Positions 4,468 through 61,669 of a DNA stretch of 64,000 nt are shown here, one piece after another; position 1 is the stretch's first letter; every line of letters starts with the position of its first letter. A model generated the notes under the pieces. That model was given only the letters and a program-made list of their open reading frames with translations, was not told the DNA's origin and did not search any database. The position numbers were made by a program, and so were the translations under genes. This DNA is from Minisyncoccales bacterium (lineage in GTDB: Bacteria; Patescibacteriota; Minisyncoccia; Minisyncoccales; JAGMDC01): contig JBARPC010000004.1 in the NCBI GenBank assembly GCA_049642725.1, positions 27,052 through 91,051 of the forward strand, given 5' to 3'.

Positions 4468-4726
4468 CTATTTTGACTATTCGCTGGCTTTTATCAAACT
4501 TTATTTTTCTTTTAGTAATAAATTTAATAATGCCTTGTTTAACAGCATAAAGAGTGTCATCATTGCCTCGTTTAACATTTGTTCCAGGAACAAACTTTGT
4601 TCCGCGCTGGCGAATAATAATACTACCTGGCTTTGCTTTTTGACCACTATAAAGTTTAACCCCTAAGTATTTGGGACTAGAATCTCTTCCTAACTTTGTT
4701 GCTCCTGTTGCTTTTGTTTTAGCCAT
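4448..4726 (-). CDS. rpmA: 50S ribosomal protein L27
   Basis: [51 protein letters not shown] matches the L27 consensus. Confidence 0.9.
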
Positions 4727-8567: not shown

Positions 8568-8600
8568 GGAGAACAGTTCTCCTTAGGAGAACTGTTCTCT
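8568..8600. repeat. REP-like double palindrome (GGAGAACAGTTCTCC-tta-GGAGAACTGTTCTC) overlapping the gltX stop
   Basis: Two tandem 14-15 nt perfect palindromes with core GAGAACWGTTCTC. The second copy encodes the last gltX residues (REQFS) and the stop. Confidence 0.7.
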
Positions 8601-10124
8601 GGCTCCCCTTACTCTCTTTAATGTCTTCTCTTTCCCTAAAATTTCTGCGACTTCAAATGGCGGCGCAGACGCCTTTTTCCCTGTCAATGCAACCCTCAAT
8701 GGCCATAAGAGTTCTCCCCTATCCCCTGTTCTTTCAGCTTCAATCATTAGAATCTTTTCTAAGTTTTCTTTATTAAAATCTTTCTCTTCTATTTTTGACA
8801 ATATTTCTTCTAATTTGTCAAGGATTTCAAGAACCTGCTTATAATTCATATCTTTCCACTTCAACAAATTTTTATCATATTCTAATTTGTCTTTGAAAAA
8901 GAAATCAGTCAATTCAGCAATTTCTGATAAATATCTTAACCGCTCCTGATATGCCTTAACAACTTTTTTTAAATAATCGCAGCTAATAACTTCGTCTGTT
9001 TCTTTGATTTTAAACTCTGGTTTTTTTTCTTTGAATAATTCAAATTTTTGAGAACTGTTCTCCTTGGGAGAACAGTTCTCTATAGTTGCTGTCACTTGTT
9101 CTATTAAATTAGCTTTTATTAAATATGGAATACACAATTCCGTTATTTTTTTATCTGATTTCTGGCGGATATAAAAGCCGTTTAAATAATCAAGCCGTTT
9201 GACGTTGAAAACAGCACCTCCTTTTTGAATATTGTCTAAGGAAAATTCTTTAATTAAAGAGACAATATTATATATTTCTCTTTCTGTGCCTGGATTCCAG
9301 CCCAAAAAAGCCATAAAATTAATTAAGGTTTCTAGTAAGACACCTTTTTCTCTGTATTCGGAAATAGCGGTTGCTCCATGCCTTTTGCTTAATTTGCTCC
9401 TGTCCGGGCCTAAAATTAAAGGCAAATGAGCGTATTTTGGCTGGGAAAAGCCTAAGGCCTGCTGAATAAGAATTTGTTTTGGGGTATTGGAAATATGATC
9501 TTCTCCTCTAATGACATGGGAAATTTTCATTTCAAAATCATCTACAGCAGCAGCAAAATTATAAAAAGGTTTTTTAAGACCTTTACTAATAATGAAATCA
9601 CCTATTAAGCTTGAGTCAAATTCAATTTTTTCCCTGACTAAATCCTCAAAAACTATTTTTTTTACTGATTCTGGAATTTTAAACCTGATAACAAAAGGTT
9701 TTTTTTCTTTTAAATTCTTTTCAACTTCTTTTTTAGAAAGCTTTCTGCACTTGCCTGAATAAAGAAGCGCTTGACCCACAGAAATTTGATATTGTTTTTG
9801 AGCTTCTAACTCTTCCTCTGTGCAAAAACAATAATATACTTTATTTTCATCTAAGAGTTTTCTAATATATTTTTCATAAATATCTAATCTTTCACTTTGT
9901 TTATAAAATTCATCGCATTTTAATCCAAGCCATTCCAAGCTTTCCATAATGTTTTTTTCATATTCAGGCCTTGATCTTTCTGAATCAGTATCTTCAATTC
10001 TTAAAATAAACTGGCCCTGATTTTGTTTGGCAAAAATATAGTTAAAAAGAGCTGCTCTGGCAGTACCAATATGTAAAAAGCCCGTAGGAGATGGAGCAAT
10101 TCTTGTTCTAACTTTTTCAATCAT
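8583..10124 (-). CDS. gltX: Glutamyl-tRNA synthetase
   Basis: RIAPSPTGFLHIGTARAALFNY (HIGH region) and KLSKR (KMSKS-like). 513 aa, including in-frame palindromic inserts. Confidence 0.9.
   Translation of the reverse strand: MIEKVRTRIAPSPTGFLHIGTARAALFNYIFAKQNQGQFILRIEDTDSERSRPEYEKNIMESLEWLGLKCDEFYKQSERLDIYEKYIRKLLDENKVYYCFCTEEELEAQKQYQISVGQALLYSGKCRKLSKKEVEKNLKEKKPFVIRFKIPESVKKIVFEDLVREKIEFDSSLIGDFIISKGLKKPFYNFAAAVDDFEMKISHVIRGEDHISNTPKQILIQQALGFSQPKYAHLPLILGPDRSKLSKRHGATAISEYREKGVLLETLINFMAFLGWNPGTEREIYNIVSLIKEFSLDNIQKGGAVFNVKRLDYLNGFYIRQKSDKKITELCIPYLIKANLIEQVTATIENCSPKENSSQKFELFKEKKPEFKIKETDEVISCDYLKKVVKAYQERLRYLSEIAELTDFFFKDKLEYDKNLLKWKDMNYKQVLEILDKLEEILSKIEEKDFNKENLEKILMIEAERTGDRGELLWPLRVALTGKKASAPPFEVAEILGKEKTLKRVRGAREQFS
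9050..9081. repeat. REP-like double palindrome (GAGAACTGTTCTCC-ttg-GGAGAACAGTTCTCT) inserted in-frame inside gltX
   Basis: Same composite element as at 8568-8600. It encodes ENCSPKENSSQ within GluRS. Confidence 0.7.
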
Positions 10125-12438: not shown

Positions 12439-13779
12439 TTATAATTTTTTAATGTACTTTTTAAATAAATTTCCTCTTTCTTTATAATCTTTAAAAATAC
12501 CAAAACTTGGTGAAGCCGGCGACAATAAACAGATTTTCCCTTTTTCTGTATGTTTATAGGCAAATTTTACCGCTTCTTTCATATTATTCACAAAGAAAGC
12601 TTTAAATCGTTTTTTAGAAGTAATAGAAATCCAAATTTTTTTACCGGTTTCTGGAAATAAAATTAATGTTTTAACTTTACTTCTTGATATTACTTTACCC
12701 AATTCTTTAAAATCCAGTCCCCTGTCATAACCGCCTAAAATTAAGGTTTGAACATTCTTGCCCAAGGAATTCATTGCCTCTATGGCAGTTTGAGGAATAG
12801 TAGAAAGAGAATCATTGTAAAATTTAATTCCTTTATAAATACCTATAAACTCTAATCGATGCGGTAGAAGTTTAAAATTTTTAATCGCTTTGGTGATTTC
12901 TTTTAAAGAAAGCTTAAATATTTTTCCTACCTCTTTGGCTGCAGATACATTTAAGAGGTTAAATTTTCCTTTAATCGGAATTTTTTTTGCCTTTGATTTT
13001 TTAACAATTTCTTTAACGAGTTTATCTTGAGAATTAAAAATTAAGTAGTCATTTTTGGTTTGCCAGTCAGTAATATTTGCTTTGGCCGAAATATATTCTT
13101 TAAAACTTTTATAATAATCAAGGTGTTCTGGATAAATATTTAAGAAAACGGCAATATTAGGGCTTTTTTTGAGATTATATAACTGATGAGATGATAATTC
13201 ATAGACAAAGATATCATCTTTCTTAGATTTAGGCAGAAAAGATAAAACTGGTTGGCCGATATTTCCGATTAAATGAGCTTTTAATTTAGCATCTTTTAGT
13301 ATTTTATAAATTAAAGAAGCAGTGGTGCTTTTTCCTTTTGTGCCAGTAATCCCAATAGTTGTTCCAAGGCAGTTTTTAAAAAATATCTTTGTCTGTGAAG
13401 TTATCTTTCCTTGTTTTAAAGCCATTTCAACCTCTGGTAAGTGGATTGGGACACCTGGTGATTTAACAATAATATCATAGTTTTTTAATGATTTAACATA
13501 ATTTTCTCCTAGATGTAATCTAATTTTCTTATCTTTTTTTATTAAGTTTGAAAATTGAAAAGCAACCCTACGAGGAGTCCCCCGCCTTTTCGCGGAAAGG
13601 GCGGGGTCCAGGAAAATTGAAAATTCTTTTCTGTCGGCCAGTCCCAAAACTTTATTCGGAAATAATCTTCTCAAAAATTTGAAGTTATCTATTCCCTCTC
13701 TACCTAATCCTAAAATTAAGATTTTTTTGGATTTTAATTCCTCTAATTTCATTTTTTTATCATAACTTAAAATCCTCAA
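12439..13779 (-). CDS. murD: UDP-N-acetylmuramoylalanine--D-glutamate ligase
   Basis: [13 protein letters not shown]-terminal motif. Mur ligase P-loop [11 protein letters not shown]. Conserved mur-cluster context. Confidence 0.9.
13568..13613. repeat. GC-rich hairpin insert (GTCCCCCGCC-ttttcgcggaaag-GGCGGGGTCC) in-frame inside murD
   Basis: Sharp local GC spike. Encodes [13 protein letters not shown]. Stem-loop read from the sequence. Confidence 0.45.
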
Positions 13780-13823
13780 AAAGTCAAAAAAAGAGGAACT
13801 ATTACGGTTCCTATTTTGTTATC

Positions 13824-14024
13824 TTATTCTTTGTGTTTTATCCACTCTTTGCCTTTTTCTGTAAACACTGGGAAGCTGATAGAAATTAATGCCGTTACAT
13901 TTTTAGGCACTATCAGATTTTCTCCGTATGCCCAACTTATCACTACAAGGATATTCTCAATTCCATGTTTTTCTGCTAGCAAATTCAGCTTATTCAATAT
14001 CTCTCTTCTTTCTTCTTCTCCCAT
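13824..14024 (-). CDS. Small hypothetical protein (66 aa)
   Basis: Co-oriented with the flanking mur-cluster genes. Charged, protein-like composition. The antisense ORF 13816-14046 is less plausible. Confidence 0.4.
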   Translation of the reverse strand: MGEEERREILNKLNLLAEKHGIENILVVISWAYGENLIVPKNVTALISISFPVFTEKGKEWIKHKE

Positions 14025-14038
14025 TTATATCACCTCTT

Positions 14039-15511
14039 CTATTTAAGATATAACTTTCTTAAAGCTTTGTCAAAATTTTTAGGCAGATTATTCTGCTTAT
14101 TCCAGGAATTTAATATTCTTTTTGATTCTATTTCAATATTTAAATACCTTGGTAATATTCTCTTCTCAAAATAATTTAAGAGAACTGGAAGTTTGAATTT
14201 TTGTGCATATGCATTTTTTTTCAAATTTTTGTTTTCTTTAAATTTTAGATAGCTTAGATAAAAAGCGATTAAACTTTCTTTTTTTGTGCCTACGCATTCA
14301 AACGGTTTTGTTTTACTCTTTCCTATCAACTCCTTCATTATCGGCAGTAATTCTTTTTTTTCAAAAAGATTCTGGCTAAAGATTTTCATTAATTTTTTTT
14401 CTTCAATAAATGGATATAAAATTGTGAAAACAAACAAGCATTTTGAGCATTTCCCGCACCATTTGCCAGTTGATTTTTTGGTTCCAGAAGCAGTTTTATA
14501 GGCCTCATTACAGCTAAGGAAAACCGGGAAATATTTTGGTAATTTAGAGAATAATCTTGCTATTTGGATTTCATACAAAGGCCTTAGAAAACTAAAATAG
14601 TTTATATCTTTAACTAAATATTTTTTGACATAATTTCTATATTTGTTTTCAAATTCAGAACTTTTAGACCATTGATGATTGATTGTTTTGCCAAGATATT
14701 TTATATTGCCTTCATCAGCGCTTTTTTCGCAGGACATTGCTATATTGTTATGGCCGAATAAAACTCCGCAAAAAACAGCTAAATTAGAAATTACTGCTGT
14801 AATTGGCGTATGGCCGTTTAAAAATCCTTTTTGGTTTAATTTTAATAAAGCAGGATCTATCTTTCTTTGGGCAATGATTGGATTTTTAATTTTAGCAATC
14901 TTTAAAATTTTGAAATGCTCTTTTGTAGGATTAACAATAAAACAATTTTTTTCAAATTTTTTGAGCAATTCTAAGGTAACAATTGAATCTTTTCCCTCGC
15001 CCATTGGTATCAAAACATTATCTTTAAGTAAACTCACGATCGTGAACTTACTGTTATTTTTATTTATTTTATTTAGACAACATATTTTTAGAAAATCAGG
15101 TCTTGTAAAGTCAATTTTGTTTTCAAAGAAAAATTGTCCCATTCCGTTAAAGATAAAATCTTTCCACCATTTTATTTGCTGTTTATCTAAATAGCCGGCT
15201 TTTATTTCAATTATTGGGGAGCAAGCCGCTTTCCAATAACTTGGTATTTCCATTAAACCAATGTGAAAAACAAGGCTATTTAATGCACTCCCACCTACTT
15301 TATCCAAGTTTTTTTTATTAACATTTTTTATAATTATTTCCGGTTTAAAACAAATACTACGAGAACTGTTCTCGTAGTGAGAGATTTTAAAATCAAAAGA
15401 AATTTTCAAATCATTTCCAGATATTCCATAAGAATATCCCTGATAAATAAATTTCGGATATTTTTTTCTTAAAACCTCAACATTTTTCATATTATTTTTA
15501 TTATTACTCAA
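14039..15511 (-). CDS. Hypothetical protein with a PP-loop-like GEGKDS motif and a C-terminal CxxC pair; possible ATP-pyrophosphatase/amidotransferase-like enzyme
   Basis: MGEGKDSIVTLELL resembles the SGGxDS PP-loop. CGKCSKC motif. Embedded in the mur cluster. Carries an in-frame REP insert (YENSSRS). Confidence 0.4.
   Translation of the reverse strand: MSNNKNNMKNVEVLRKKYPKFIYQGYSYGISGNDLKISFDFKISHYENSSRSICFKPEIIIKNVNKKNLDKVGGSALNSLVFHIGLMEIPSYWKAACSPIIEIKAGYLDKQQIKWWKDFIFNGMGQFFFENKIDFTRPDFLKICCLNKINKNNSKFTIVSLLKDNVLIPMGEGKDSIVTLELLKKFEKNCFIVNPTKEHFKILKIAKIKNPIIAQRKIDPALLKLNQKGFLNGHTPITAVISNLAVFCGVLFGHNNIAMSCEKSADEGNIKYLGKTINHQWSKSSEFENKYRNYVKKYLVKDINYFSFLRPLYEIQIARLFSKLPKYFPVFLSCNEAYKTASGTKKSTGKWCGKCSKCLFVFTILYPFIEEKKLMKIFSQNLFEKKELLPIMKELIGKSKTKPFECVGTKKESLIAFYLSYLKFKENKNLKKNAYAQKFKLPVLLNYFEKRILPRYLNIEIESKRILNSWNKQNNLPKNFDKALRKLYLK
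15356..15378. repeat. REP palindrome ACTACGAGAACTGTTCTCGTAGT inserted in-frame in the 14039-15511 CDS
   Basis: Perfect 11-bp arms around a central T. Same element as the copies flanking the RAYT gene. Confidence 0.7.
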
Positions 15512-31961: not shown

Positions 31962-31987
31962 AAAATAACTGTTATTCTAAACTAAAA

Positions 31988-32028
31988 AAAAACAGCTGCT
32001 TGATTCCAAGCAGCTGTTTTTTTTAGTT
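31988..32028. terminator. Bidirectional rho-independent terminator (ACAGCTGCTTG-attcc-AAGCAGCTGT) flanked by A- and T-runs
   Basis: Perfect 11-bp stem. Lies between the convergent RRM gene and xseB. Confidence 0.75.
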
Positions 32029-39774: not shown

Positions 39775-39798
39775 GGTGTGCTTAACCCGGTTAAGCAC
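39775..39798. terminator. Perfect 24-nt palindrome GTGTGCTTAACCCGGTTAAGCACAC just 3' of the ABC-F gene
   Basis: Read directly. Flanked by T-rich sequence on the plus strand. Confidence 0.5.
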
Positions 39799-39801
39799 AC
39801 T

Positions 39802-41403
39802 CTATTTATTTGAATAGAGATAATCTTTATAATTCCCTAAATATGCTTTTAATTTCTTATTTTTAATTTCCCAAATATTATTACATACTTTATTGAGAAT
39901 ATAACGGTCATGGGAAACTAAAAGAATCGTGCCATTGTATTCTTTAAGCATATTAGTCACAACTTCTTTGCTTGGAAGGTCTAAATGATTTGTTGGCTCG
40001 TCTAATACAAGAAAATTTGATTTTTGCAGTATTAACTCAGCCAAAGCAACTCTTGCCCGCTCTCCGCCGCTTAATTGATGAATTTTTTTAGCGGTCTGGT
40101 TTTGGGTAAACAAAAGGCAGCCTAAAACATTTCTGATTTTTTCTTCATCGAATATTGTTTTAAACGCTACTTCTTCTAATATACTTTTTTCCGGATCCAA
40201 TTCTTCATGCGCTTGCGCGTAATAACCTATTTTTATTCCTTGCGTTATTTTTACTTTTCCAGCGATGTTCTGGCGTTCGTCAATAATAGTTTTTAACAAA
40301 CTTGATTTCCCTGTTCCGTTATTGCCTATAATGCCAATCTTATTTCCCCAATTTACTTCTATTTTGTCTTGTATTTCAAATAAAGGCGACTGCCCGTTGC
40401 CAATGATTAAATTATTAATTTCTAAGACCCTTGTGCAAGTTTTTTCTGTAATATCAAAATTGATTTTGATATCGCTGCTTGTTTTCGGTTTTTCTACTTG
40501 CTCTACTTTTGCTAATTGCTTAATCCTGCCTTGAACCTGTCCGGCTATTGCCGCCTTATATCTGAAACGGTCAATAAATTCCTGCTGCTTCTTGAAATAC
40601 TTTTGCTGATTTTTATAATTCTTTTTCTGCATTTCAACACGTTTCTCTTTTTCTTTTATATATTCGGAATAAGAACAATAATATTTTTGCAATCCCTGCC
40701 TGGTTAATTCAAATGTCTTATCGCACATTTTATCCAAAAATAATCTATCGTGAGATACGCATATTATTGTTTTATTCCAATTTAATAAAAATTGTTCCAG
40801 CCATTCTATTGTTTTTAAGTCAAGATGATTAGTCGGTTCGTCTAAAATCAACAAATTAGGTTTAGACGCTAAAATTTTAGCCAACGCTATCTTTGTCCTT
40901 TCTCCGCCGCTTAATGTCTTAATTTTCCTTTGCAGATATTGTTCTGAAAAACCAAAATTTTCTAAAAGATTTTTTATCAATCCTTCGTAGCGGTGGCTGT
41001 TCAGTTTTAGTGTTTCCGCGTCTACTGAATGCATTTCCTCTAAAAGCGTGTTTTGAAGAGATTTCCAATGAGTTTCTTGCGGCAAATATCCTATTTTGAG
41101 ATTTTTGTTTTTGCTGATATTTCCTTCGTCTGCTTCCTCTGTTCCTATAATTATTTTTAAAAGAGTGCTTTTGCCTGTTCCATTTGCGCCCACAATAGTG
41201 ATTCTGTCATTACAATTTATTGTTAAATCAATAGCAGAAAACAGGTCCTCTTCTCTATAGGATTTTGAAATACCACGTAGAATCAATAAAGGATTTTTAA
41301 CTTTCTTTGATTGGTTCTCGTAAAAAAATTTTGGAATTTTTATATTATTTTTGTCCATAAAAAAAACAGGGATTAAATAATTCAACACAACAGCCAAATA
41401 CAT
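39802..41403 (-). CDS. ABC-F family ATPase (tandem ABC domains, no TM; EttA/Uup-like translation factor)
   Basis: Two Walker A sites (GANGTGKST, GNNGTGKSS), two signatures LSGGERTK and LSGGERARV, an inter-domain linker. The true start may be the internal MDKNN Met. Confidence 0.85.
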   Translation of the reverse strand: MYLAVVLNYLIPVFFMDKNNIKIPKFFYENQSKKVKNPLLILRGISKSYREEDLFSAIDLTINCNDRITIVGANGTGKSTLLKIIIGTEEADEGNISKNKNLKIGYLPQETHWKSLQNTLLEEMHSVDAETLKLNSHRYEGLIKNLLENFGFSEQYLQRKIKTLSGGERTKIALAKILASKPNLLILDEPTNHLDLKTIEWLEQFLLNWNKTIICVSHDRLFLDKMCDKTFELTRQGLQKYYCSYSEYIKEKEKRVEMQKKNYKNQQKYFKKQQEFIDRFRYKAAIAGQVQGRIKQLAKVEQVEKPKTSSDIKINFDITEKTCTRVLEINNLIIGNGQSPLFEIQDKIEVNWGNKIGIIGNNGTGKSSLLKTIIDERQNIAGKVKITQGIKIGYYAQAHEELDPEKSILEEVAFKTIFDEEKIRNVLGCLLFTQNQTAKKIHQLSGGERARVALAELILQKSNFLVLDEPTNHLDLPSKEVVTNMLKEYNGTILLVSHDRYILNKVCNNIWEIKNKKLKAYLGNYKDYLYSNK

Positions 41404-58856: not shown

Positions 58857-58963
58857 ATCTTGATTCTATCATAATTTAACTAAAAATAAAGACCTATTTT
58901 CAATTTTTGGCTCACCCCGTAAAGCTTCGCCACGGGGCACGAATTTTTCCCGCATATTATACT

Positions 58964-58986
58964 ACTACGAGAACAGTTCTCGTAGT
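58964..58986. repeat. REP palindrome ACTACGAGAACAGTTCTCGTAGT (GTAG-type), 3' flank of the RAYT gene
   Basis: Perfect 11-bp arms. Preceded by a CCCCGT...ACGGGG hairpin plus T-run at 58906-58950. Confidence 0.75.
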
Positions 58987-58988
58987 GT

Positions 58989-59699
58989 TTAGTTTATTAA
59001 TATTTCTTTGAAATTAGAATCAGCCATTTGTTTTTTAAGCGAAATCCATTCTTTAACAAAATGACGGCTGTTATCTATACTGCCCATTAAGTTAGATAAT
59101 AACTCTCTGTTTGTTAATAAAGGATAATTCTTCTTGCCCAAATAATCAGGATAGCTTGACCATTTATAGTTTTCTAAAAATTTAATAACATCTTCTATAT
59201 TTTTGGTTTTTATCCCCTCTTCTTTCCATTTAGGAGCTATAATAGCTACAGGATTGGTATGAATGTAAACAAATAATGTTTTTAATTGCTCATCGTTTTT
59301 TACAATAACTGCCCTGAATCTCCCGTCAAAAACATGGCCCTTTCTTTCGTATTTCTTATTATAATACATTCCATATCCAGCTCCAATCTTTCTCATAAAC
59401 TTACTAATCCCTTGGCCTCTAACTTGTTTAATTAATAGATGAACATGATTTGGCATTAAACAAAAAGTCAAAATTTCCACCAACATTTTTCTTTCCTTCT
59501 TTATTCTACCACTACGAGAACTGTTCTCGTAGTGTTGACGATAAGACCAAATAGTGGGATTTTTGTCGTTAAATTCAAATAAATTATGAAGAGAACGAAA
59601 ATAATCCCTTTCGTCTCTAAAAAGCTTCATTCCTTCCACTGCCCTAATTACAATATGGTATATTTCTCCGTTTACTAATGGTGGTCTTTTAATTGGCAT
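58989..59699 (-). mobile_element. REP-associated tyrosine transposase (RAYT; IS200/IS605-family Y1 HuH transposase TnpA)
   Basis: HuH motif CLMPNHVHLLIKQ and catalytic Tyr motif YIHTNPV. Flanked on both sides by the 23-nt REP palindrome. Confidence 0.8.
59511..59533. repeat. REP palindrome ACTACGAGAACTGTTCTCGTAGT lying in-frame inside the RAYT CDS (encodes YENSSRS)
   Basis: Identical to the flanking REPs. Located in the N-terminal third of the transposase gene. Confidence 0.75.
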
Positions 59700-59727
59700 A
59701 TTATATTATATTTTATCTTACTTACGC

Positions 59728-59750
59728 ACTACGAGAACTGTTCTCGTAGT
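59728..59750. repeat. REP palindrome ACTACGAGAACTGTTCTCGTAGT, 5' flank of the RAYT gene
   Basis: Lies between the RAYT start (59699) and the stop of the adjacent CaCA gene (59753). Confidence 0.75.
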
Positions 59751-59752
59751 GT

Positions 59753-60706
59753 TTATTTGACGAGGATTTCGGTTATTACAAAAGCGATGTAAACGCCTAA
59801 AAGGAATAATCCTTCTTTTTTTGTGATTTTTCTATCAGTGCGGACAAAAATAAGAAAGAATAAAGCAGCCATTACCAAGAAAAACCGGGCAACAGCATAA
59901 GGAGAAAAACTGGCAATTTCAATCGGACAAATAATAGCCACAATGCCTAAAACCAATGTAGAAGCAACAATAACAACGCCCATTAAATCGCCTAAAAGCA
60001 TCCAATTCTGGCCTTGCCTGGCTGAAAGAATGGTAAAGTATGCTTCTGGAAAAGCGTTGCCAATAGCAACAACAAACATTCCGATAAAAACCAAAGAAAA
60101 ATGAAAGGTCTCTCCAAAATAAAAAGCAGCTTCTACCATTCCTTTAGAAGCTGCGAGTAAAATAATTATTCCAAAAGCTACTTTCCCCAAACCCTTAAAA
60201 AAATCTTTAAAATCCTTTACACTAACTTTATTCCCATTATATGTCTTACTAAACCTTTCTTTTTTTGAAAAGAGCCAAAAAACATAAAACACAAAGGCAG
60301 AAATTAAAACTGCTCCGTCGCCTCTTGATAAGATACCGTCAAAAATTAGAAAAAGAGGCAGAATAGCAATAAAAAAGGTAAAAACTGCTGATGACTGGAC
60401 CATCTTGCTTCTAGCTGGTATTCCCTTGCTTACAAAAACAGACAGAGCAATAATAACCGTTAAATCAATAAGGTTTCCGCCAATAGTATCTCCGAAAGAA
60501 AGCTGAGGAACTCCTTTAAGAGCAGACAGAATGCCAAAGAAAAAATTAGGAGCAGAACCAGCAACAGCAACGATAAAAAAAGCAATAACAAATTCCCTTA
60601 ATTTCAAAAAACAAGCCATTTTTACTAATCCGTCAACCAGCCATTTTCCAGACCAGAAAAGCAAAAAACAAGAAATAAGAAAAAGTAAGATATAAAAATA
60701 AAACAT
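59753..60706 (-). CDS. Ca2+:cation antiporter (CaCA family, YrbG-like)
   Basis: Two alpha-repeat motifs (GDTIGGNLIDL and GNAFPEAYF). About ten TM segments. Confidence 0.8.
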   Translation of the reverse strand: MFYFYILLFLISCFLLFWSGKWLVDGLVKMACFLKLREFVIAFFIVAVAGSAPNFFFGILSALKGVPQLSFGDTIGGNLIDLTVIIALSVFVSKGIPARSKMVQSSAVFTFFIAILPLFLIFDGILSRGDGAVLISAFVFYVFWLFSKKERFSKTYNGNKVSVKDFKDFFKGLGKVAFGIIILLAASKGMVEAAFYFGETFHFSLVFIGMFVVAIGNAFPEAYFTILSARQGQNWMLLGDLMGVVIVASTLVLGIVAIICPIEIASFSPYAVARFFLVMAALFFLIFVRTDRKITKKEGLFLLGVYIAFVITEILVK

Positions 60707-60709
60707 AGA

Positions 60710-61669
60710 TTATTGAATTAATAATTCACAAAAGACAAAAGTAATATAAATGCCTAATAAAAATATAGCTTCTTTTTTTGTAATTTTACTACCACTCCGA
60801 ACACAGAAGAAAAAGAACAAAGCTGAAAAAATTAAGAAAAACCGGGCAATAGCAAAAGAAGAAAAATTAATCATTTCAATCGGACAAATCAAAGCAACAA
60901 TTCCTAAGACCAAAGTAGCCGGCACTATTACTGAACCCATTAAATTGCCTAAAATCATTCCTGTCTCACCCTTTTTAGCAGAAATAATAGCAAAATACAT
61001 TTCAGGCAAGGCATTTCCCAGACCTACGATTAAAATACCGATTAAAGGTAAAGACAAATTCCAGTTCTGAGCGAAAAAAGAAGCTGACCTCACTATTCCT
61101 TCTGCTGCTGCCAAAAGTAAAATCAGGGATAAGGATACTGCAACTAAACTCTTTATAAAAAGTTTAAATCCTATAATTGTATCTTTTTCTTTTTCATTAT
61201 AAACTCTTTTAAATCTTTCTTTTTTTGAAAAGAGCCAAAAAACATAAAATACAAAGGCAGAAATTAATAAAATCCCGTCTCCTCTGCCTAATGTCCCGTC
61301 TAAAATTAAAACTATTGGCAAAACCGCTATAGCAATTGTAAAAATTGAAGAAGTTTGAATAAGCTCGCCTTTTGCTGGAATAAATGCTTTTGAAATTAAG
61401 ACCGCCAAAGCCACTGCTAAAGTTAAATCAATAACATTGCCCCCTACTACATCTCCAAAAGAAAGCTCGGGAATTTTGTAAAGAGCTGAATTAATTCCAA
61501 CAAAAAGATTTGGCACAGAGCCGGCAAAAGCCATCACAAAAAAGGCAACCACAAATTCCTTCCATTTTAAAAACCTTGCCATTCTAATTAATCCTTCAAC
61601 CAGTATCTTTCCTGACCAAAGAAGAATTATGCAGGAAAATATAAAAATAAAAGTATAAAAACCAATCAT
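60710..61669 (-). CDS. Ca2+:cation antiporter (CaCA family), tandem paralog
   Basis: GDVVGGNVIDL and GNALPEMYF alpha-repeats. Clear paralog of the adjacent gene. Confidence 0.8.
   Translation of the reverse strand: MIGFYTFIFIFSCIILLWSGKILVEGLIRMARFLKWKEFVVAFFVMAFAGSVPNLFVGINSALYKIPELSFGDVVGGNVIDLTLAVALAVLISKAFIPAKGELIQTSSIFTIAIAVLPIVLILDGTLGRGDGILLISAFVFYVFWLFSKKERFKRVYNEKEKDTIIGFKLFIKSLVAVSLSLILLLAAAEGIVRSASFFAQNWNLSLPLIGILIVGLGNALPEMYFAIISAKKGETGMILGNLMGSVIVPATLVLGIVALICPIEMINFSSFAIARFFLIFSALFFFFCVRSGSKITKKEAIFLLGIYITFVFCELLIQ

What the first reader, a model, noticed from the sequence alone, without database searches (positions are those of the whole stretch)
58906..59760. Complete REP/RAYT unit: IS200-like Y1 transposase bracketed by identical 23-nt GTAG-type palindromes
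The 236-aa protein at 58989-59699 has the HuH motif (HVHLL) and the catalytic-Tyr motif (YIHTNPV) of IS200/IS605 TnpA. Identical perfect palindromes ACTACGAGAAC[A/T]GTTCTCGTAGT lie immediately outside both ends of the gene, at 58964-58986 and 59728-59750. Their terminal CTAC/GTAG tetranucleotides match the conserved GTAG head of known REPs. The gene has no IS200 subterminal hairpin context and is flanked by REPs, which is the defining arrangement of REP-associated tyrosine transposases. A GC hairpin plus T-run (58906-58950) adjoins the left REP.
Basis: partly seen in the sequence, partly recalled or inferred. Interest (0 to 1): 0.75.

Follow-up and report, generated by a model that had tools for sequence, protein, structure and literature searches.

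The report
RAYT-like gene carrying its own hairpin
A single-copy, vertically inherited relative of the REP-associated tyrosine transposases in a tiny-genome (Patescibacteria) bacterium is bracketed by its own short perfect DNA palindrome, carries a third copy inside its own coding sequence, and has seeded further copies inside essential genes; this is a new variant of a known kind of system, not a new kind.

Summary
The 236-aa ORF (58989-59699, minus strand) is an HuH/Y1 enzyme: Pfam Y1_Tnp, and its best structural match is the E. coli RAYT structure 4ER8. Exact 23-nt palindromes flank it.

- One lies inside the gene (59511-59533) and encodes HYENSSRS.
- One lies inside a MurL-like gene (15356-15378) and encodes the same peptide.

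Across 80 related loci at 39-67% protein identity, the same three-site layout recurs: upstream, in the coding loop before the HuH motif, and downstream.
- The palindrome differs between loci but matches within a locus (0/2000 permutations reach the observed similarity).
- It covaries with almost no G·T pairs.
- It occupies all three codon phases.
- It stays unit-specific for three paralogs within one genome.

The gene is syntenic with a 77%-identical ortholog, which indicates vertical inheritance.

Dispersed copies are few, about 1 per 35 kb. Several sit in-frame in conserved genes (MurL-like, GluRS, Pth, MltG-like). At orthologous sites in different species they are 21/21 identical, while the flanking coding DNA is 51-69% identical.

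This works like a RAYT/REPtron but fails two canonical features. It has no 5' GTAG guide (the polarity is reversed and the motif is not conserved in the family), and it scores below the NCBIfam RAYT cutoff. REPs inside RAYT genes and inside other genes have precedents (subclass 2.4; Di Nocera 2013). Verdict: new variant of a known kind.

The parts
58989..59699 (-). RAYT-like HuH/Y1 enzyme gene (236 aa; HuH at N84-H85-V86-H87, catalytic Y145 in YIHTNP, C-terminal tail with a WSSY motif)
   Evidence: ORF and translation. Pfam Y1_Tnp E=1.8e-11. NCBIfam REP_Tyr_transpos 46.2 bits, below the cutoff of 80, and IS200 16.9 bits. AF2 model pLDDT 88. Foldseek best hit 4er8_A, E=4.4e-6. 100% identical to P0001, named 'MAG: transposase [Minisyncoccales bacterium]'.
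59727..59751 (.). Upstream cognate palindrome CACTACGAGAAC-W-GTTCTCGTAGTG (12-bp stem). It lies 28 nt before the ATG and 1-2 nt after the stop codon of the neighbouring Na/Ca-exchanger gene.
   Evidence: ssDNA dG -10.9 kcal/mol, z -5.85. The equivalent position holds a cognate hairpin in most of 80 related units.
59510..59534 (.). Internal cognate palindrome inside the coding sequence. It encodes H56-Y-E-N-S-S-R-S63 in the loop between helix 30-42 and the strands that carry the HuH motif.
   Evidence: Residues 58-63 are the only internal low-confidence segment of the AF2 model. A cognate internal hairpin occurs at +128 to +213 in 53/80 units, in all three codon phases.
58963..58987 (.). Downstream cognate palindrome (11-bp stem, central base inverted relative to the other two), 2 nt after the stop codon
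   Evidence: Downstream cognate hairpins occur in most related units.
15356..15378 (.). Dispersed exact copy of the palindrome inside the MurL-like gene (ORF 14039-15511, minus strand), translated in frame as HYENSSRS at a beta-turn
   Evidence: 100 of 120 orthologs have an empty site (KI-EPD-I) here. Pfam MurL_N and MurL_epimerase_C hit the ortholog.
9049..9081 (.). Related but non-cognate second palindrome family (GGAGAACWGTTCTCC) as an inverted doublet. It is translated in frame (IENCSPKENSSQ) in the inter-domain linker of GluRS (ORF 8583-10124, minus strand).
   Evidence: The GluRS linker has about 37 extra residues relative to solved GluRS. A RAYT homolog with this hairpin type exists elsewhere (L036: CGGAGAACAGTTCTCCG).
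8568..8600 (.). Second inverted doublet of the GGAGAAC family. It overlaps the 3' end of the GluRS gene and supplies its last residues (REQFS) and its stop codon.
   Evidence: ssDNA dG -14.6 kcal/mol, z -7.0. The alignment to solved GluRS ends just before these residues.

Best explanation
This is a resident, vertically inherited RAYT-like system (class 2 of the TnpA-Y1 HuH family) that is typical of a large Patescibacteria clade.

The enzyme's cognate substrate is a short perfect DNA palindrome held at three fixed positions: just upstream of the gene, inside the coding sequence in a disordered loop before the HuH motif, and just downstream.

By analogy with E. coli TnpA(REP) and IS608 TnpA, the enzyme most likely binds the palindrome when it is extruded as a single-stranded DNA hairpin. 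This could happen at the replication fork or during transcription. It would then cleave next to the hairpin through Tyr145 and the HuH-bound metal, and rejoin strands.

Repeated cleavage and strand transfer between copies would do two things. It would keep the three copies of a unit identical to one another while they co-diverge with the protein. It would also occasionally copy the hairpin to other places. Such copies survive only between genes, at gene ends where they can supply the stop codon, or inside genes in the two stop-free frames at tolerant positions.

Shown here:
- the fold and catalytic motifs;
- the three-site architecture and its family-wide cognate covariation;
- unit specificity among paralogs within one genome;
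- synteny of the gene with a diverged ortholog;
- intragenic, in-frame copies that are far more conserved than their flanking coding sequence.

Inferred:
- hairpin binding and cleavage by the protein;
- that the protein is what spreads and homogenises the copies;
- that the internal copy has a function, most plausibly self-regulation through the enzyme binding its own gene or transcript.
For: Enzyme:
- Pfam Y1_Tnp. HuH and Tyr are invariant in 114 homologs.
- The class-2 'Y---NP' signature, as defined in PMC6006769, is present as YIHTNP.
- AF2 model pLDDT 88. The best fold hit is 4er8_A, the E. coli RAYT bound to a REP hairpin (E=4.4e-6, TM 0.69 on the target). It ranks ahead of the IS608, ISDra2 and IS200 transposases.

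Architecture in 80 non-redundant units:
- Same-locus hairpins share 16.5-18.3 of 25 positions, against about 9.3 between loci. No permutation out of 2000 reached the observed value.
- All three sites are cognate in 39 units, and the internal copy is cognate with a flank in 53. Several further units have internal copies with 1-3 mismatches.

Selection on DNA rather than on the peptide:
- Stem positions 2-10 are 83-100% Watson-Crick paired, with 2-4 pair types and 0-4 G·T pairs of 53.
- Codon phases are 18/15/7.
- The syntenic 77% ortholog encodes its hairpin in the other frame, PRTVLG against YENSSRS.

Co-evolution:
- Mantel rho is 0.34, with 0 of 1000 permutations reaching it.
- Three paralogs (64-73% identical) in one 271-kb contig each keep their own triplet. 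They share the CGAGAAC core but have different outer stems.

Residency:
- The same gene order (cation ATPase, two Na/Ca exchangers, Y1) occurs in the sister genome.
- No relatives were found in IMG/VR viral contigs.

Spread:
- The exact 21-mer occurs in 19 stretches from about 10 Patescibacteria MAGs, many inside long ORFs, and always in a stop-free frame where it lies inside a long ORF.
- The MurL-like site is empty in 100 of 120 orthologs.
- Orthologous Pth and MltG-like copies are 21/21 identical, against 51-69% identity in the flanks.
Against: - No biochemical evidence exists. Binding and cleavage are inferred from homologs that are only about 15% identical.
- The canonical RAYT recognition element, an unpaired 5' GT[AG]G guide, is absent. 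The palindromes are perfect on both strands, so the known strand-specific recognition cannot be transferred directly. In the characterised systems the reverse complement (iREP) is inactive (PMC8266576).
- The NCBIfam RAYT equivalog cutoff is not reached.
- Copy number outside the units is low: 1 extra copy in the 64-kb window, 12 in about 420 kb of related loci, and 2 in 62 kb of one genome. 'Proliferation' is therefore weak.
- About 8 units with good flanking hairpins lack any internal copy, and 13 units have no hairpins at all, so none of the sites is indispensable.
- Loop orientation among the three sites is not consistent between loci.
- The Pth copy is a length-neutral replacement in a core strand rather than an insertion, which a simple cut-and-paste or copy-in model does not predict.
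Confidence: 0.7

Rival explanations
1. The internal copy is a functionless passenger. The enzyme acts preferentially close to where it is made, so the hairpin is repeatedly inserted or re-copied into the one loop of its own protein that tolerates extra residues. The conserved position would reflect tolerance and target preference, not function.
For: - REP insertions inside RAYT genes that keep the frame are already known for subclass 2.4, where they are interpreted as tolerated peripheral insertions (PMC6006769).
- The encoded residues are the only disordered internal segment of the model.
- The loop is long and hypervariable whether or not a hairpin is recognisable (median 33 against 30 residues, p=0.09).
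- Some units with good flanking hairpins lack an internal copy.
- L088 and L059 have second internal copies.
Against: - The same loop is occupied in at least 53 of 80 units down to about 40% identity, while other surface loops are almost never hit. There is one case at +513.
- The internal copy stays matched to the flanks in each of three paralogous units within one genome.
- It is kept as a perfect palindrome while the frame and the flanking peptide change between 77%-identical orthologs.
This degree of maintenance needs either selection or a very active homogenising process.
Confidence: 0.35
2. The unit is an ordinary autonomous IS200/IS605-type insertion sequence. Its left and right subterminal hairpins are the flanking palindromes, and the whole 0.8-kb unit transposes.
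For: - It is a Y1 transposase fold with hairpins close to both gene ends.
- Public annotation calls it a 'transposase'.
Against: - The Y motif is YIHTNP, not the Y---Q of subclass 1.1 (PMC6006769).
- The NCBIfam IS200 model gives 16.9 bits against a cutoff of 55.
- There is one copy in the window.
- Paralogs in one genome are only 62-73% identical, not near-identical.
- The gene sits in the same syntenic slot in a genome whose orthologs are about 71-77% identical.
- No tnpB-sized ORF adjoins the gene.
- No copies occur in viral contigs.
Confidence: 0.07
3. The palindromes are double-stranded operator or terminator sites. The dimeric Y1 protein, or another factor, binds them as duplex DNA to autoregulate or insulate the gene, and there is no DNA cleavage or mobilisation. 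Copies elsewhere arise by chance convergence or template-switch 'palindromisation'.
For: - Perfect two-fold symmetry with virtually no G·T pairs is what duplex operators look like.
- The two flanking copies plus T-rich tails score as terminator-like on the antisense strand.
- Copy number outside the unit is low.
- Template-switch correction of quasi-palindromes is an established mutational route to perfect palindromes (general knowledge).
Against: - The catalytic HuH and Tyr residues are invariant across 114 homologs, which argues for retained nuclease/ligase chemistry.
- Identical 21-27-nt copies at unrelated loci, and in different species within genes whose flanks are 51-69% identical, cannot be convergence.
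- An operator in the middle of MurL-like, GluRS, Pth and MltG-like genes has no obvious regulatory logic.
Confidence: 0.12
4. The repeats are assembly or sequencing artefacts, or chance palindromes.
For: Palindromes can cause assembly problems. Some family representatives begin matching the profile right after the hairpin position.
Against: - The same architecture is found in about 80 independent contigs from many projects and assemblers.
- The reading frames are intact.
- None is expected by chance.
Confidence: 0.01

Closest known systems
E. coli TnpA(REP)/RAYT and its REPtron (Bertels group 2 / subclass 2.2; PDB 4ER8)
   Same: - HuH/Y1 fold; it is the best structural match.
- The Y---NP motif is present.
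- It is a single-copy, vertically inherited gene flanked by its own cognate palindromes that also occur elsewhere in the genome.
- The protein and the palindrome co-evolve.
   Different: - About 15% sequence identity, and below the NCBIfam RAYT cutoff.
- 236 aa against 165 aa, with a long loop before the HuH motif and a roughly 90-aa tail.
- The palindromes here are perfect, with no bulge and no unpaired 5' GTAG guide.
- They are low-copy rather than present in hundreds of copies.
- Many dispersed copies are intragenic.
- A third copy lies inside the gene.
Subclass 2.4 (Bertels group 4) TnpA(REP) of Cyanobacteria and Bacteroidetes, with REPs inserted in-frame inside tnpA(REP) (Quentin et al. 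2018, PMC6006769)
   Same: The cognate REP sits inside the enzyme's own gene without breaking the frame, in a peripheral region of the protein. REPs also flank the gene.
   Different: [quoted passage not shown] Here the copy lies before the HuH motif, between helix A and the next strand.
- Subclass 2.4 REPs are long and carry a 5' GT[AG]G, some with the 'double foot' 5'-GTAG...CTAC-3'. Here the arrangement is 5'-CTAC...GTAG-3' and is not conserved in the family.
- The motif set and length differ: about 194 aa, WQ and YIxNNP in subclass 2.4, against about 238 aa, FQ and YIHTNP here.
- The host phylum is different.
Subclass 2.1 / TIRYT 'TIRtrons' (Di Nocera et al. 2013, PMC3733652; Quentin et al. 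2018)
   Same: - Closest match of published key motifs and size: NHVH, FQ, Y[IV]HxNP, median 238 aa, and a tail with an SS motif (table read; family consensus).
- Some TIRs are self-complementary and form small repeat families.
   Different: - Subclass 2.1 is described as lacking REP-like hairpins, and its TIRs share GGGGWSAS. Here short perfect palindromes of a different sequence flank the gene and lie within it.
- No HTH-type Pfam domain was detected in the tail at E<=0.1.
- Membership could not be tested with the authors' HMMs.
Group 3 RAYTs with perfect-palindrome REPs (S. maltophilia, Marinomonas; Corneloup et al. 2021, PMC8266576)
   Same: Short perfect stems (8 bp and a 3-nt loop, compared with 7-12 bp and 1-3 nt here). 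The loop and stem sequence contribute to specific recognition, and the pairs co-evolve.
   Different: Those REPs still carry the 5' GTAG guide that selects the CT/CA cleavage site, and only one strand is active. No equivalent unpaired guide is evident here.
Rickettsia palindromic elements (RPEs) and other intragenic REPs (Ogata et al. 2000, from my own knowledge; Di Nocera et al. 2013)
   Same: Palindromic repeats are translated in-frame inside conserved, presumably functional genes of a reduced-genome bacterium. tRNA synthetases are among the hosts.
   Different: - RPE-1 elements are 100-150 bp and no mobilising enzyme is known for them. Here the repeats are 17-27 nt single units or 31-33 nt doublets.
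- Here there is an identifiable cognate Y1 gene.
- At least one copy here (Pth) is length-neutral.
Rolling-circle HuH Rep proteins whose origin hairpin lies inside their own gene (pT181 repC, phiX174 gene A; from my own knowledge)
   Same: An HuH enzyme's specific hairpin substrate is embedded in its own coding sequence and co-varies with the protein's specificity.
   Different: Those are replication initiators of plasmids and phages. Here the gene is chromosomal, syntenic and of the Y1 transposase type. There is no evidence of an episome.

Membership tests
TnpA(Y1) HuH superfamily (Pfam PF01797) | Pfam Y1_Tnp match above the gathering score | tested here: met
   44.6 bits against a cutoff of 23, E=1.8e-11. 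The match covers residues 69-148 only, because the long loop interrupts the N-terminal part.
TnpA(Y1) HuH superfamily (Pfam PF01797) | HuH motif and catalytic tyrosine conserved; HuH/Y1 fold | tested here: met
   H85, H87 and Y145 are invariant in 114 homologs. The AF2 model (pLDDT 88) matches 4er8, 2xm3, 2a6o and 2f4f with probability 1.00.
Class 2 TnpA(REP)/RAYT (Quentin et al. 2018) | Y-motif signature Y---NP (against Y---Q in IS200-type enzymes) | tested here: met
   YIHTNP, with Y145, N149 and P150 invariant or nearly so. The definition was read.
Class 2 TnpA(REP)/RAYT (Quentin et al. 2018) | NCBIfam REP_Tyr_transpos (NF047646) equivalog cutoff | tested here: not met
   46.2 bits against a cutoff of 80. 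It is still far better than the IS200 model, which gives 16.9 bits.
REPtron (RAYT plus REP system) | Gene flanked on both sides by its own cognate palindromes | tested here: met
   For the window. The upstream and downstream hairpins are cognate (at least 18 of 25 positions) in 53 of 80 related units, with 0 of 2000 permutations reaching the observed similarity.
REPtron (RAYT plus REP system) | Canonical REP: an unpaired 5' GT[AG]G guide at the foot of the hairpin | tested here: not met
   The window palindrome reads 5'-CACTACGAG...CTCGTAGTG-3'. CTAC and GTAG are paired within the stem and have reversed polarity. Relatives use CACGGGT..., TTACGAGG..., TATTGATTT... and others, with no conserved GTAG.
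REPtron (RAYT plus REP system) | The same palindrome family is dispersed in many, mostly extragenic copies in the host genome | tested here: inconclusive
   Dispersed copies exist but are few: 1 in the 64-kb window, 12 in about 420 kb, and 2 in 62 kb of one genome. For the CGAGAAC family, about 12 of 20 dispersed copies are intragenic. No complete genome was available for a census.
REPtron (RAYT plus REP system) | Low gene copy number, divergent paralogs each with their own repeat family, vertical inheritance | tested here: met
   One copy in the window. At least four paralogs, 62-73% identical, lie in one contig, and three of them have unit-specific hairpins. The gene order is conserved with a 77%-identical ortholog.
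REPtron (RAYT plus REP system) | The enzyme binds and cleaves its folded single-stranded cognate REP | not testable with these tools
   This requires purified protein and a cleavage and strand-transfer assay, as in PMC8266576.
IS200/IS605 insertion sequence (subclass 1.1) | Y---Q motif; NCBIfam transpos_IS200 cutoff; about 150 aa core-only protein | tested here: not met
   The motif is YIHTNP. The score is 16.9 bits against a cutoff of 55. The protein is 236 aa with a tail domain.
IS200/IS605 insertion sequence (subclass 1.1) | Multiple near-identical copies per genome, often with tnpB | tested here: not met
   There is a single copy in 64 kb. Paralogs are at most 73% identical. The neighbours are Na/Ca-exchanger genes and a 129-aa ORF, with no TnpB-sized ORF.
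Subclass 2.4 RAYT (REP inside tnpA) | [quoted passage not shown] | tested here: not met
   The in-frame internal palindrome is present, but it encodes residues 56-63, upstream of HuH (H85/H87). The only copy found between HuH and Y is in L088 at +513.
Subclass 2.1 / TIRYT | Motif set NHVH / FQ / Y[IV]HxNP, about 238 aa, tail with an SS motif | tested here: met
   The family consensus contains PNHVHLL, GHLFQG (GHVFDG in the window protein), YIHTNP and RWSSY, and the proteins are 230-250 aa. This comparison was by motif inspection only, against Table 1 of PMC6006769.
Subclass 2.1 / TIRYT | No REP-like hairpins; flanking TIRs with GGGGWSAS; HTH-like C-terminal Pfam domain | tested here: not met
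   Perfect hairpins flank the gene and lie within it. No GGGGWSAS-type TIR was seen. There is no Pfam hit other than Y1_Tnp at E<=0.1.

The most novel reading that the evidence does not exclude
The internal hairpin is an obligatory cis element rather than a passenger. In this reading, a whole clade of HuH/Y1 enzymes (at least 544 clusters at 50% identity) keeps its own DNA substrate inside its coding sequence and uses it for self-targeting control. The enzyme would bind or nick its own gene, or bind its transcript.

The same enzyme would continually rewrite hairpin copies in place. That would explain three observations: unit-specific triplets in genomes with several paralogs; 100% identical palindromes at orthologous sites inside essential genes whose flanks have diverged to 51-69%; and a length-neutral overwrite of a core beta-strand of Pth.

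This would make the system a sequence-specific, hairpin-templated editor of chromosomal DNA rather than a transposase of miniature elements.
Probability: 0.3. Interest if true: 0.75.

Novelty: new variant of a known kind. Interest (0 to 1): 0.55.

Why it matters
RAYT/REP systems are a main example of a domesticated transposase living with its repeats, yet what the enzyme does in vivo is still unsettled.

This Patescibacteria clade offers a stripped-down version: very small genomes, very few repeat copies, short perfect hairpins, and a substrate copy built into the enzyme's own gene at a fixed site. Three kinds of comparison make maintenance, homogenisation and specificity switching directly tractable:
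- three unit-specific triplets within one genome;
- orthologous intragenic copies that stay identical while their host genes diverge;
- empty and filled orthologous sites.

It also has practical value for annotation of candidate-phyla genomes. Odd 6-12-residue peptides such as YENSSRS, TTRTVLVV or ENSSP in housekeeping proteins, and C-terminal tails such as REQFS, are repeat-derived and should not be read as lineage-specific protein features.

Tried and rejected
- First AF2 run with a 21-sequence alignment gave pLDDT 49.5 and was discarded. The 114-sequence alignment gave pLDDT 88.
- A sequence-only PDB search with the family profile found only a marginal ISDra2 hit (E=0.09) and not 4ER8. Fold comparison was needed.
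- I expected units with an internal hairpin to have a longer loop than units without, as a signature of insertion. The difference was not significant (33 against 30 residues, p=0.09). Several 'flanks-only' units turned out to hold decayed internal copies.
- I looked for a fixed relative orientation of the three hairpins from their loop bases, as in inverted REPs of a REPtron. The window, L020, L049 and L060 show up = internal and down inverted, but L025, L064, L078 and L091 do not. No rule emerged.
- The promoter scan found no sigma-70-like site upstream of the gene. The terminator scan only re-found the palindromes, on the antisense strand. This was not informative in a 33% GC genome.
- The GC hairpin plus T-run at 58906-58950 was rejected as part of the unit (z -0.32; absent in sister locus L100).
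- Rfam at gathering thresholds found nothing in the region, only three tRNAs elsewhere.
- The viral-contig scan found no relatives.
- tblastn found no second Y1 gene in the window that could be cognate to the GGAGAAC doublets.
- The literature search 'RAYT' plus 'Patescibacteria' returned only noise from word-start matching. 'REP-associated tyrosine transposase' plus 'candidate phyla radiation' returned one paper, which only mentions the KEGG term. A search for palindromic in-frame insertions in Parcubacteria found nothing.
- The palindrome at 4578-4603 was checked as a possible repeat copy. It was rejected because it lies within the ribosomal protein L27 gene in what I judge, from my own knowledge of L27, to be ordinary conserved coding sequence.
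- A pure 'insertion' model for intragenic copies was rejected as general. The Pth copy aligns without gaps to solved Pth structures.


Full report
**1. What is in the window**

ORF 58989-59699 (minus strand) encodes a 236-aa protein with PNHVHLL and YIHTNPV.
- It matches Pfam Y1_Tnp (E=1.8e-11, 44.6 bits against a cutoff of 23). Only residues 69-148 match.
- NCBIfam ranks the RAYT model first (REP_Tyr_transpos, 46.2 bits) but below its cutoff of 80. The IS200 model scores 16.9 bits.
- There are four exact copies in the window against 0.00 expected. The third is inside the gene at 59511-59533. The fourth is at 15356-15378, inside a 490-aa ORF on the minus strand.
- Both intragenic copies are read in the same frame as HYENSSRS.
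- As single-stranded DNA the copies fold with dG -8.8 to -10.9 kcal/mol, z -4.3 to -5.9.
- A related palindrome, GGAGAACWGTTCTCC, occurs as two inverted doublets, each a perfect 31-nt palindrome. One lies in the middle of the GluRS gene. The other overlaps its 3' end, where it supplies the last residues and the stop codon.
- The 'GC hairpin plus T-run' at 58906-58950 is no better than shuffled sequence (z -0.32).

**2. The source and the family**

The protein is identical to a 'transposase' of a Minisyncoccales MAG, on a contig of 134,803 nt.
- The word-indexed search found 2,252 relatives, all about 230-250 aa. Every source name that identifies a lineage is Patescibacteria; a few say only 'bacterium'.
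- A profile search of 1.84 billion representatives found 544 clusters (at 50% identity) at E<=1e-30 and 9,867 at E<=1e-10.
- No relatives are in IMG/VR viral contigs.
- With a 114-sequence alignment, AlphaFold gives pLDDT 88 and pTM 0.84.
- The best solved match is 4ER8, the E. coli RAYT bound to a REP hairpin (E=4.4e-6, TM 0.69 on the target). It ranks ahead of the IS608, ISDra2 and IS200 transposases.
- The only low-confidence internal stretch of the model is residues 58-63, within the palindrome-encoded residues 56-63. It lies between helix 30-42 and the strands that carry the HuH motif.

**3. The three-site architecture is a property of the family**

In the alignment of the 120 closest homologs, the same loop nearly always encodes a palindrome-like peptide.
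- It appears in one frame as YENSSRS, YENGSRD or YEKRSRS, or in another as TRTVLV, ARTVLA or PRTVLG.
- I fetched 80 metagenomic loci at 39-67% identity and scanned them for palindromes.
- Most show the same palindrome at three conserved places: 12-117 nt upstream of the start, +128 to +213 inside the coding sequence, and just after the stop.
- The palindrome differs between loci. Examples are CACGGGTTGAACCCGTG, TTACGAGGCTAAGCCTCGTAA, GCGGAGACCCGGTCTCCGC and TATTGATTTACGAAATCAATA.
- Centre-anchored 25-mers of the same locus share 16.5-18.3 positions, against about 9.3 for different loci. No permutation out of 2000 reached the observed value.
- All three sites are cognate in 39 of 80 units, and the internal copy matches a flank in 53 of 80. 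Several of the remaining units have internal copies with 1-3 mismatches.
- In those 53 internal hairpins, positions 2-10 from the centre are 83-100% Watson-Crick paired, with 2-4 pair types per position. G·T pairs are almost absent, 0-4 of 53.
- The hairpin centre falls in all three codon phases, 18/15/7.

The constraint is therefore on a symmetric DNA element, not on the peptide, and it does not look like an RNA structure.

**4. Co-evolution, paralogs and inheritance**

- Hairpin similarity tracks protein similarity (Mantel rho 0.34, 0 of 1000 permutations).
- One 271-kb Nealsonbacteria contig holds at least four paralogs that are 62-73% identical. Three of them keep their own hairpin set: two have all three sites, and P0060 has the upstream and internal copies only.
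- These sets share the CGAGAAC core but have different outer stems: ATAGAGCGAGAA..., ATAGGTCGAGAAC... and AACTGACGAGAAC.... The fourth paralog has no hairpins.
- The closest relative of the window protein (77% identity) lies in the same gene order: cation ATPase, two Na/Ca-exchanger genes, then Y1.
- Its hairpins keep the CGAGAAC core with symmetric changes in the outer stem. Its internal hairpin is read in the other frame (PRTVLG).

The gene is thus an old resident of this chromosomal position. It behaves like a RAYT: single copy, divergent paralogs, each with its own repeat. It does not behave like an IS.

**5. Copies elsewhere, including inside genes**

The exact 21-nt core occurs in 19 stretches from about ten Patescibacteria MAGs of different species.
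- Two of these stretches are homologous three-copy units.
- Of about 20 other copies, about 12 lie inside long ORFs, always in one of the two stop-free frames (YENS/CSRS or TTRTVLVV). The third frame contains TAG and appears at gene ends as ...REQFS-stop.
- The host of the window's dispersed copy is a MurL-like protein. In 100 of 120 orthologs the site is an empty beta-turn (KI-EPD-I). About 20 orthologs carry palindrome-type inserts there, and other orthologs carry such peptides elsewhere in the protein.
- In the sister genome, the MurL-site copy is homologous but has a compensatory A-T to G-C change. Its core, CGAGGACAGACCTCG, equals that genome's own downstream RAYT hairpin.
- GluRS has about 37 extra residues in its inter-domain linker, where the doublet lies.
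- Pth genes and MltG/YceG-like genes, each compared between two species, carry the palindrome at the same site. The MltG identification is from the PEGFLFPDTY motif and my own knowledge.
- In both gene pairs the palindrome is 21/21 identical while the 150-nt flanks are 51-69% identical. That excludes neutral vertical descent of the palindrome.
- The Pth copy aligns without gaps to solved Pth structures. NTTRTVLVV takes the place of the native GIYPEELVV, so it is a length-neutral replacement in a core strand and not a simple insertion.
- Outside the CGAGAAC family, dispersed copies are rare and mostly intergenic: 12 in about 420 kb, 11 of them not in long ORFs.

**6. Comparison with what is known**

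- Quentin et al. 2018 (PMC6006769) divide TnpA(Y1) proteins into 12 subclasses. Class 2 (RAYT-like) is defined by Y---NP, which is met here.
- The motif set and size of the present family (NHVH, FQ, YIHTNP, SS tail, about 238 aa) resemble their subclass 2.1 (TIRYT), which is described as having no REP-like hairpins.
- Di Nocera et al. 2013 (PMC3733652) documented intragenic REPs, including in tRNA synthetases. They also noted REP termini that supply stop codons, and self-complementary TIR families.
- Corneloup et al. 2021 (PMC8266576) showed that RAYTs act on folded single-stranded REPs, that the 5' GTAG acts as a guide for CT/CA cleavage, and that group 3 REPs are perfect palindromes.
- The window palindrome has CTAC at its 5' end and GTAG at its 3' end, both paired in the stem. 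This is the reverse of the canonical arrangement, and the relatives have no conserved GTAG.

The system therefore works like a REPtron but is not a canonical GTAG REPtron. I found no description of this clade or of its pre-HuH internal hairpin in the searchable library.

**7. Mechanism, and what remains inferred**

The most likely mechanism is as follows.
- The enzyme recognises its palindrome as an extruded single-stranded hairpin and performs Tyr-mediated cleavage and rejoining next to it.
- Exchange between copies keeps a unit's three copies matched and occasionally writes the hairpin elsewhere.
- Purifying selection then leaves only copies that are intergenic, at gene ends, or in-frame at tolerant sites.
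- Template-switch correction of quasi-palindromes, an established mutational process, may help to keep the stems perfect.

The role of the internal copy is open. Three features favour a cis function such as self-regulation: its positional conservation, its unit-specific matching in multi-paralog genomes, and its persistence through frame changes. Three features favour a tolerated passenger: its absence from some units, the disordered and hypervariable loop, and the subclass 2.4 precedent. No binding or cleavage has been shown.

**8. Verdict**

The RAYT-like interpretation is broadly right, but the 'GTAG-type', 'complete unit' and 'adjoining terminator' details are not. The finding is a new variant of a known kind. 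It has moderately high interest because it provides a compact, comparative-genomics-ready model for how a domesticated HuH enzyme maintains its repeats.

Noticed in passing
window 8568-8600 and 9049-9081 (GluRS ORF 8583-10124, minus strand): A second palindrome family (GGAGAACWGTTCTCC) is present as two inverted doublets. One is translated in the GluRS inter-domain linker, and the other supplies the C-terminal REQFS and the stop codon. No cognate Y1 gene is in the window, but a homolog with this hairpin type exists in locus L036.
   Followed up: partly
window 39776-39800: A perfect 25-nt palindrome, GTGTGCTTAACCCGGTTAAGCACAC (12-bp stem), lies 1 nt after the stop codon of an ABC-F-type ATPase gene (39802-41403, minus strand). 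It is unrelated in sequence to the CGAGAAC family. It could be a terminator or a copy of another hairpin family.
   Followed up: partly
window 31985-32024: A 40-nt palindrome with A8 and T8 arms, AAAAAAAACAGCTGCTTG-ATTC-CAAGCAGCTGTTTTTTTT, looks like a bidirectional intrinsic terminator.
   Followed up: no
window 59753-60706 and 60710-61669: Two tandem Na/Ca-exchanger paralogs (317 and 319 aa) share about 71-73% nucleotide identity over long stretches. The same tandem pair precedes the Y1 gene in the sister genome (L100).
   Followed up: partly
L100 10761-13206, compared with window 58857-58988: Between the Y1 gene and the conserved 129-aa gene, the sister genome has three extra genes (302 aa, 198 aa, and a 279-aa Fic-domain protein) that the window lacks. 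This is an indel of about 2.5 kb directly next to the downstream hairpin.
   Followed up: no
L102 4001-5461 and window 14039-15511 (MurL-like orthologs); alignment of P0121-P0240: Ortholog lengths vary from 426 to 603 aa, and several orthologs carry palindrome-type peptides at other positions (AENSSPLKLAENSSPQ, NMPRTVLGI, NTTRTVLVI). The same beta-turn holds different palindrome variants in different lineages, including a double insert (SNNSENSSRSKLDENCSRQ).
   Followed up: partly
Representative proteins P0254, P0261, P0274, P0292, P0297, P0328, P0337, P0343: A number of family representatives start matching the profile only at positions about 53-71, directly at or after the internal hairpin. 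Some have unrelated N-terminal sequence. This could reflect assembly breaks at the palindrome or real rearrangements at the hairpin.
   Followed up: no
L013 2948-2993; L056 about -53 to -16 relative to the gene; L034 +722 to +752; L024 +732 to +790: Hairpin copies often occur as closely spaced inverted pairs, like REPINs or BIMEs. These include a pair of the exact window-type 21-mer separated by 4 nt in L013.
   Followed up: partly
window 12439-15511: The MurL-like epimerase gene lies next to a MurD-like ligase gene, with a small 66-aa ORF between them. The same pairing is seen in the sister genome.
   Followed up: no
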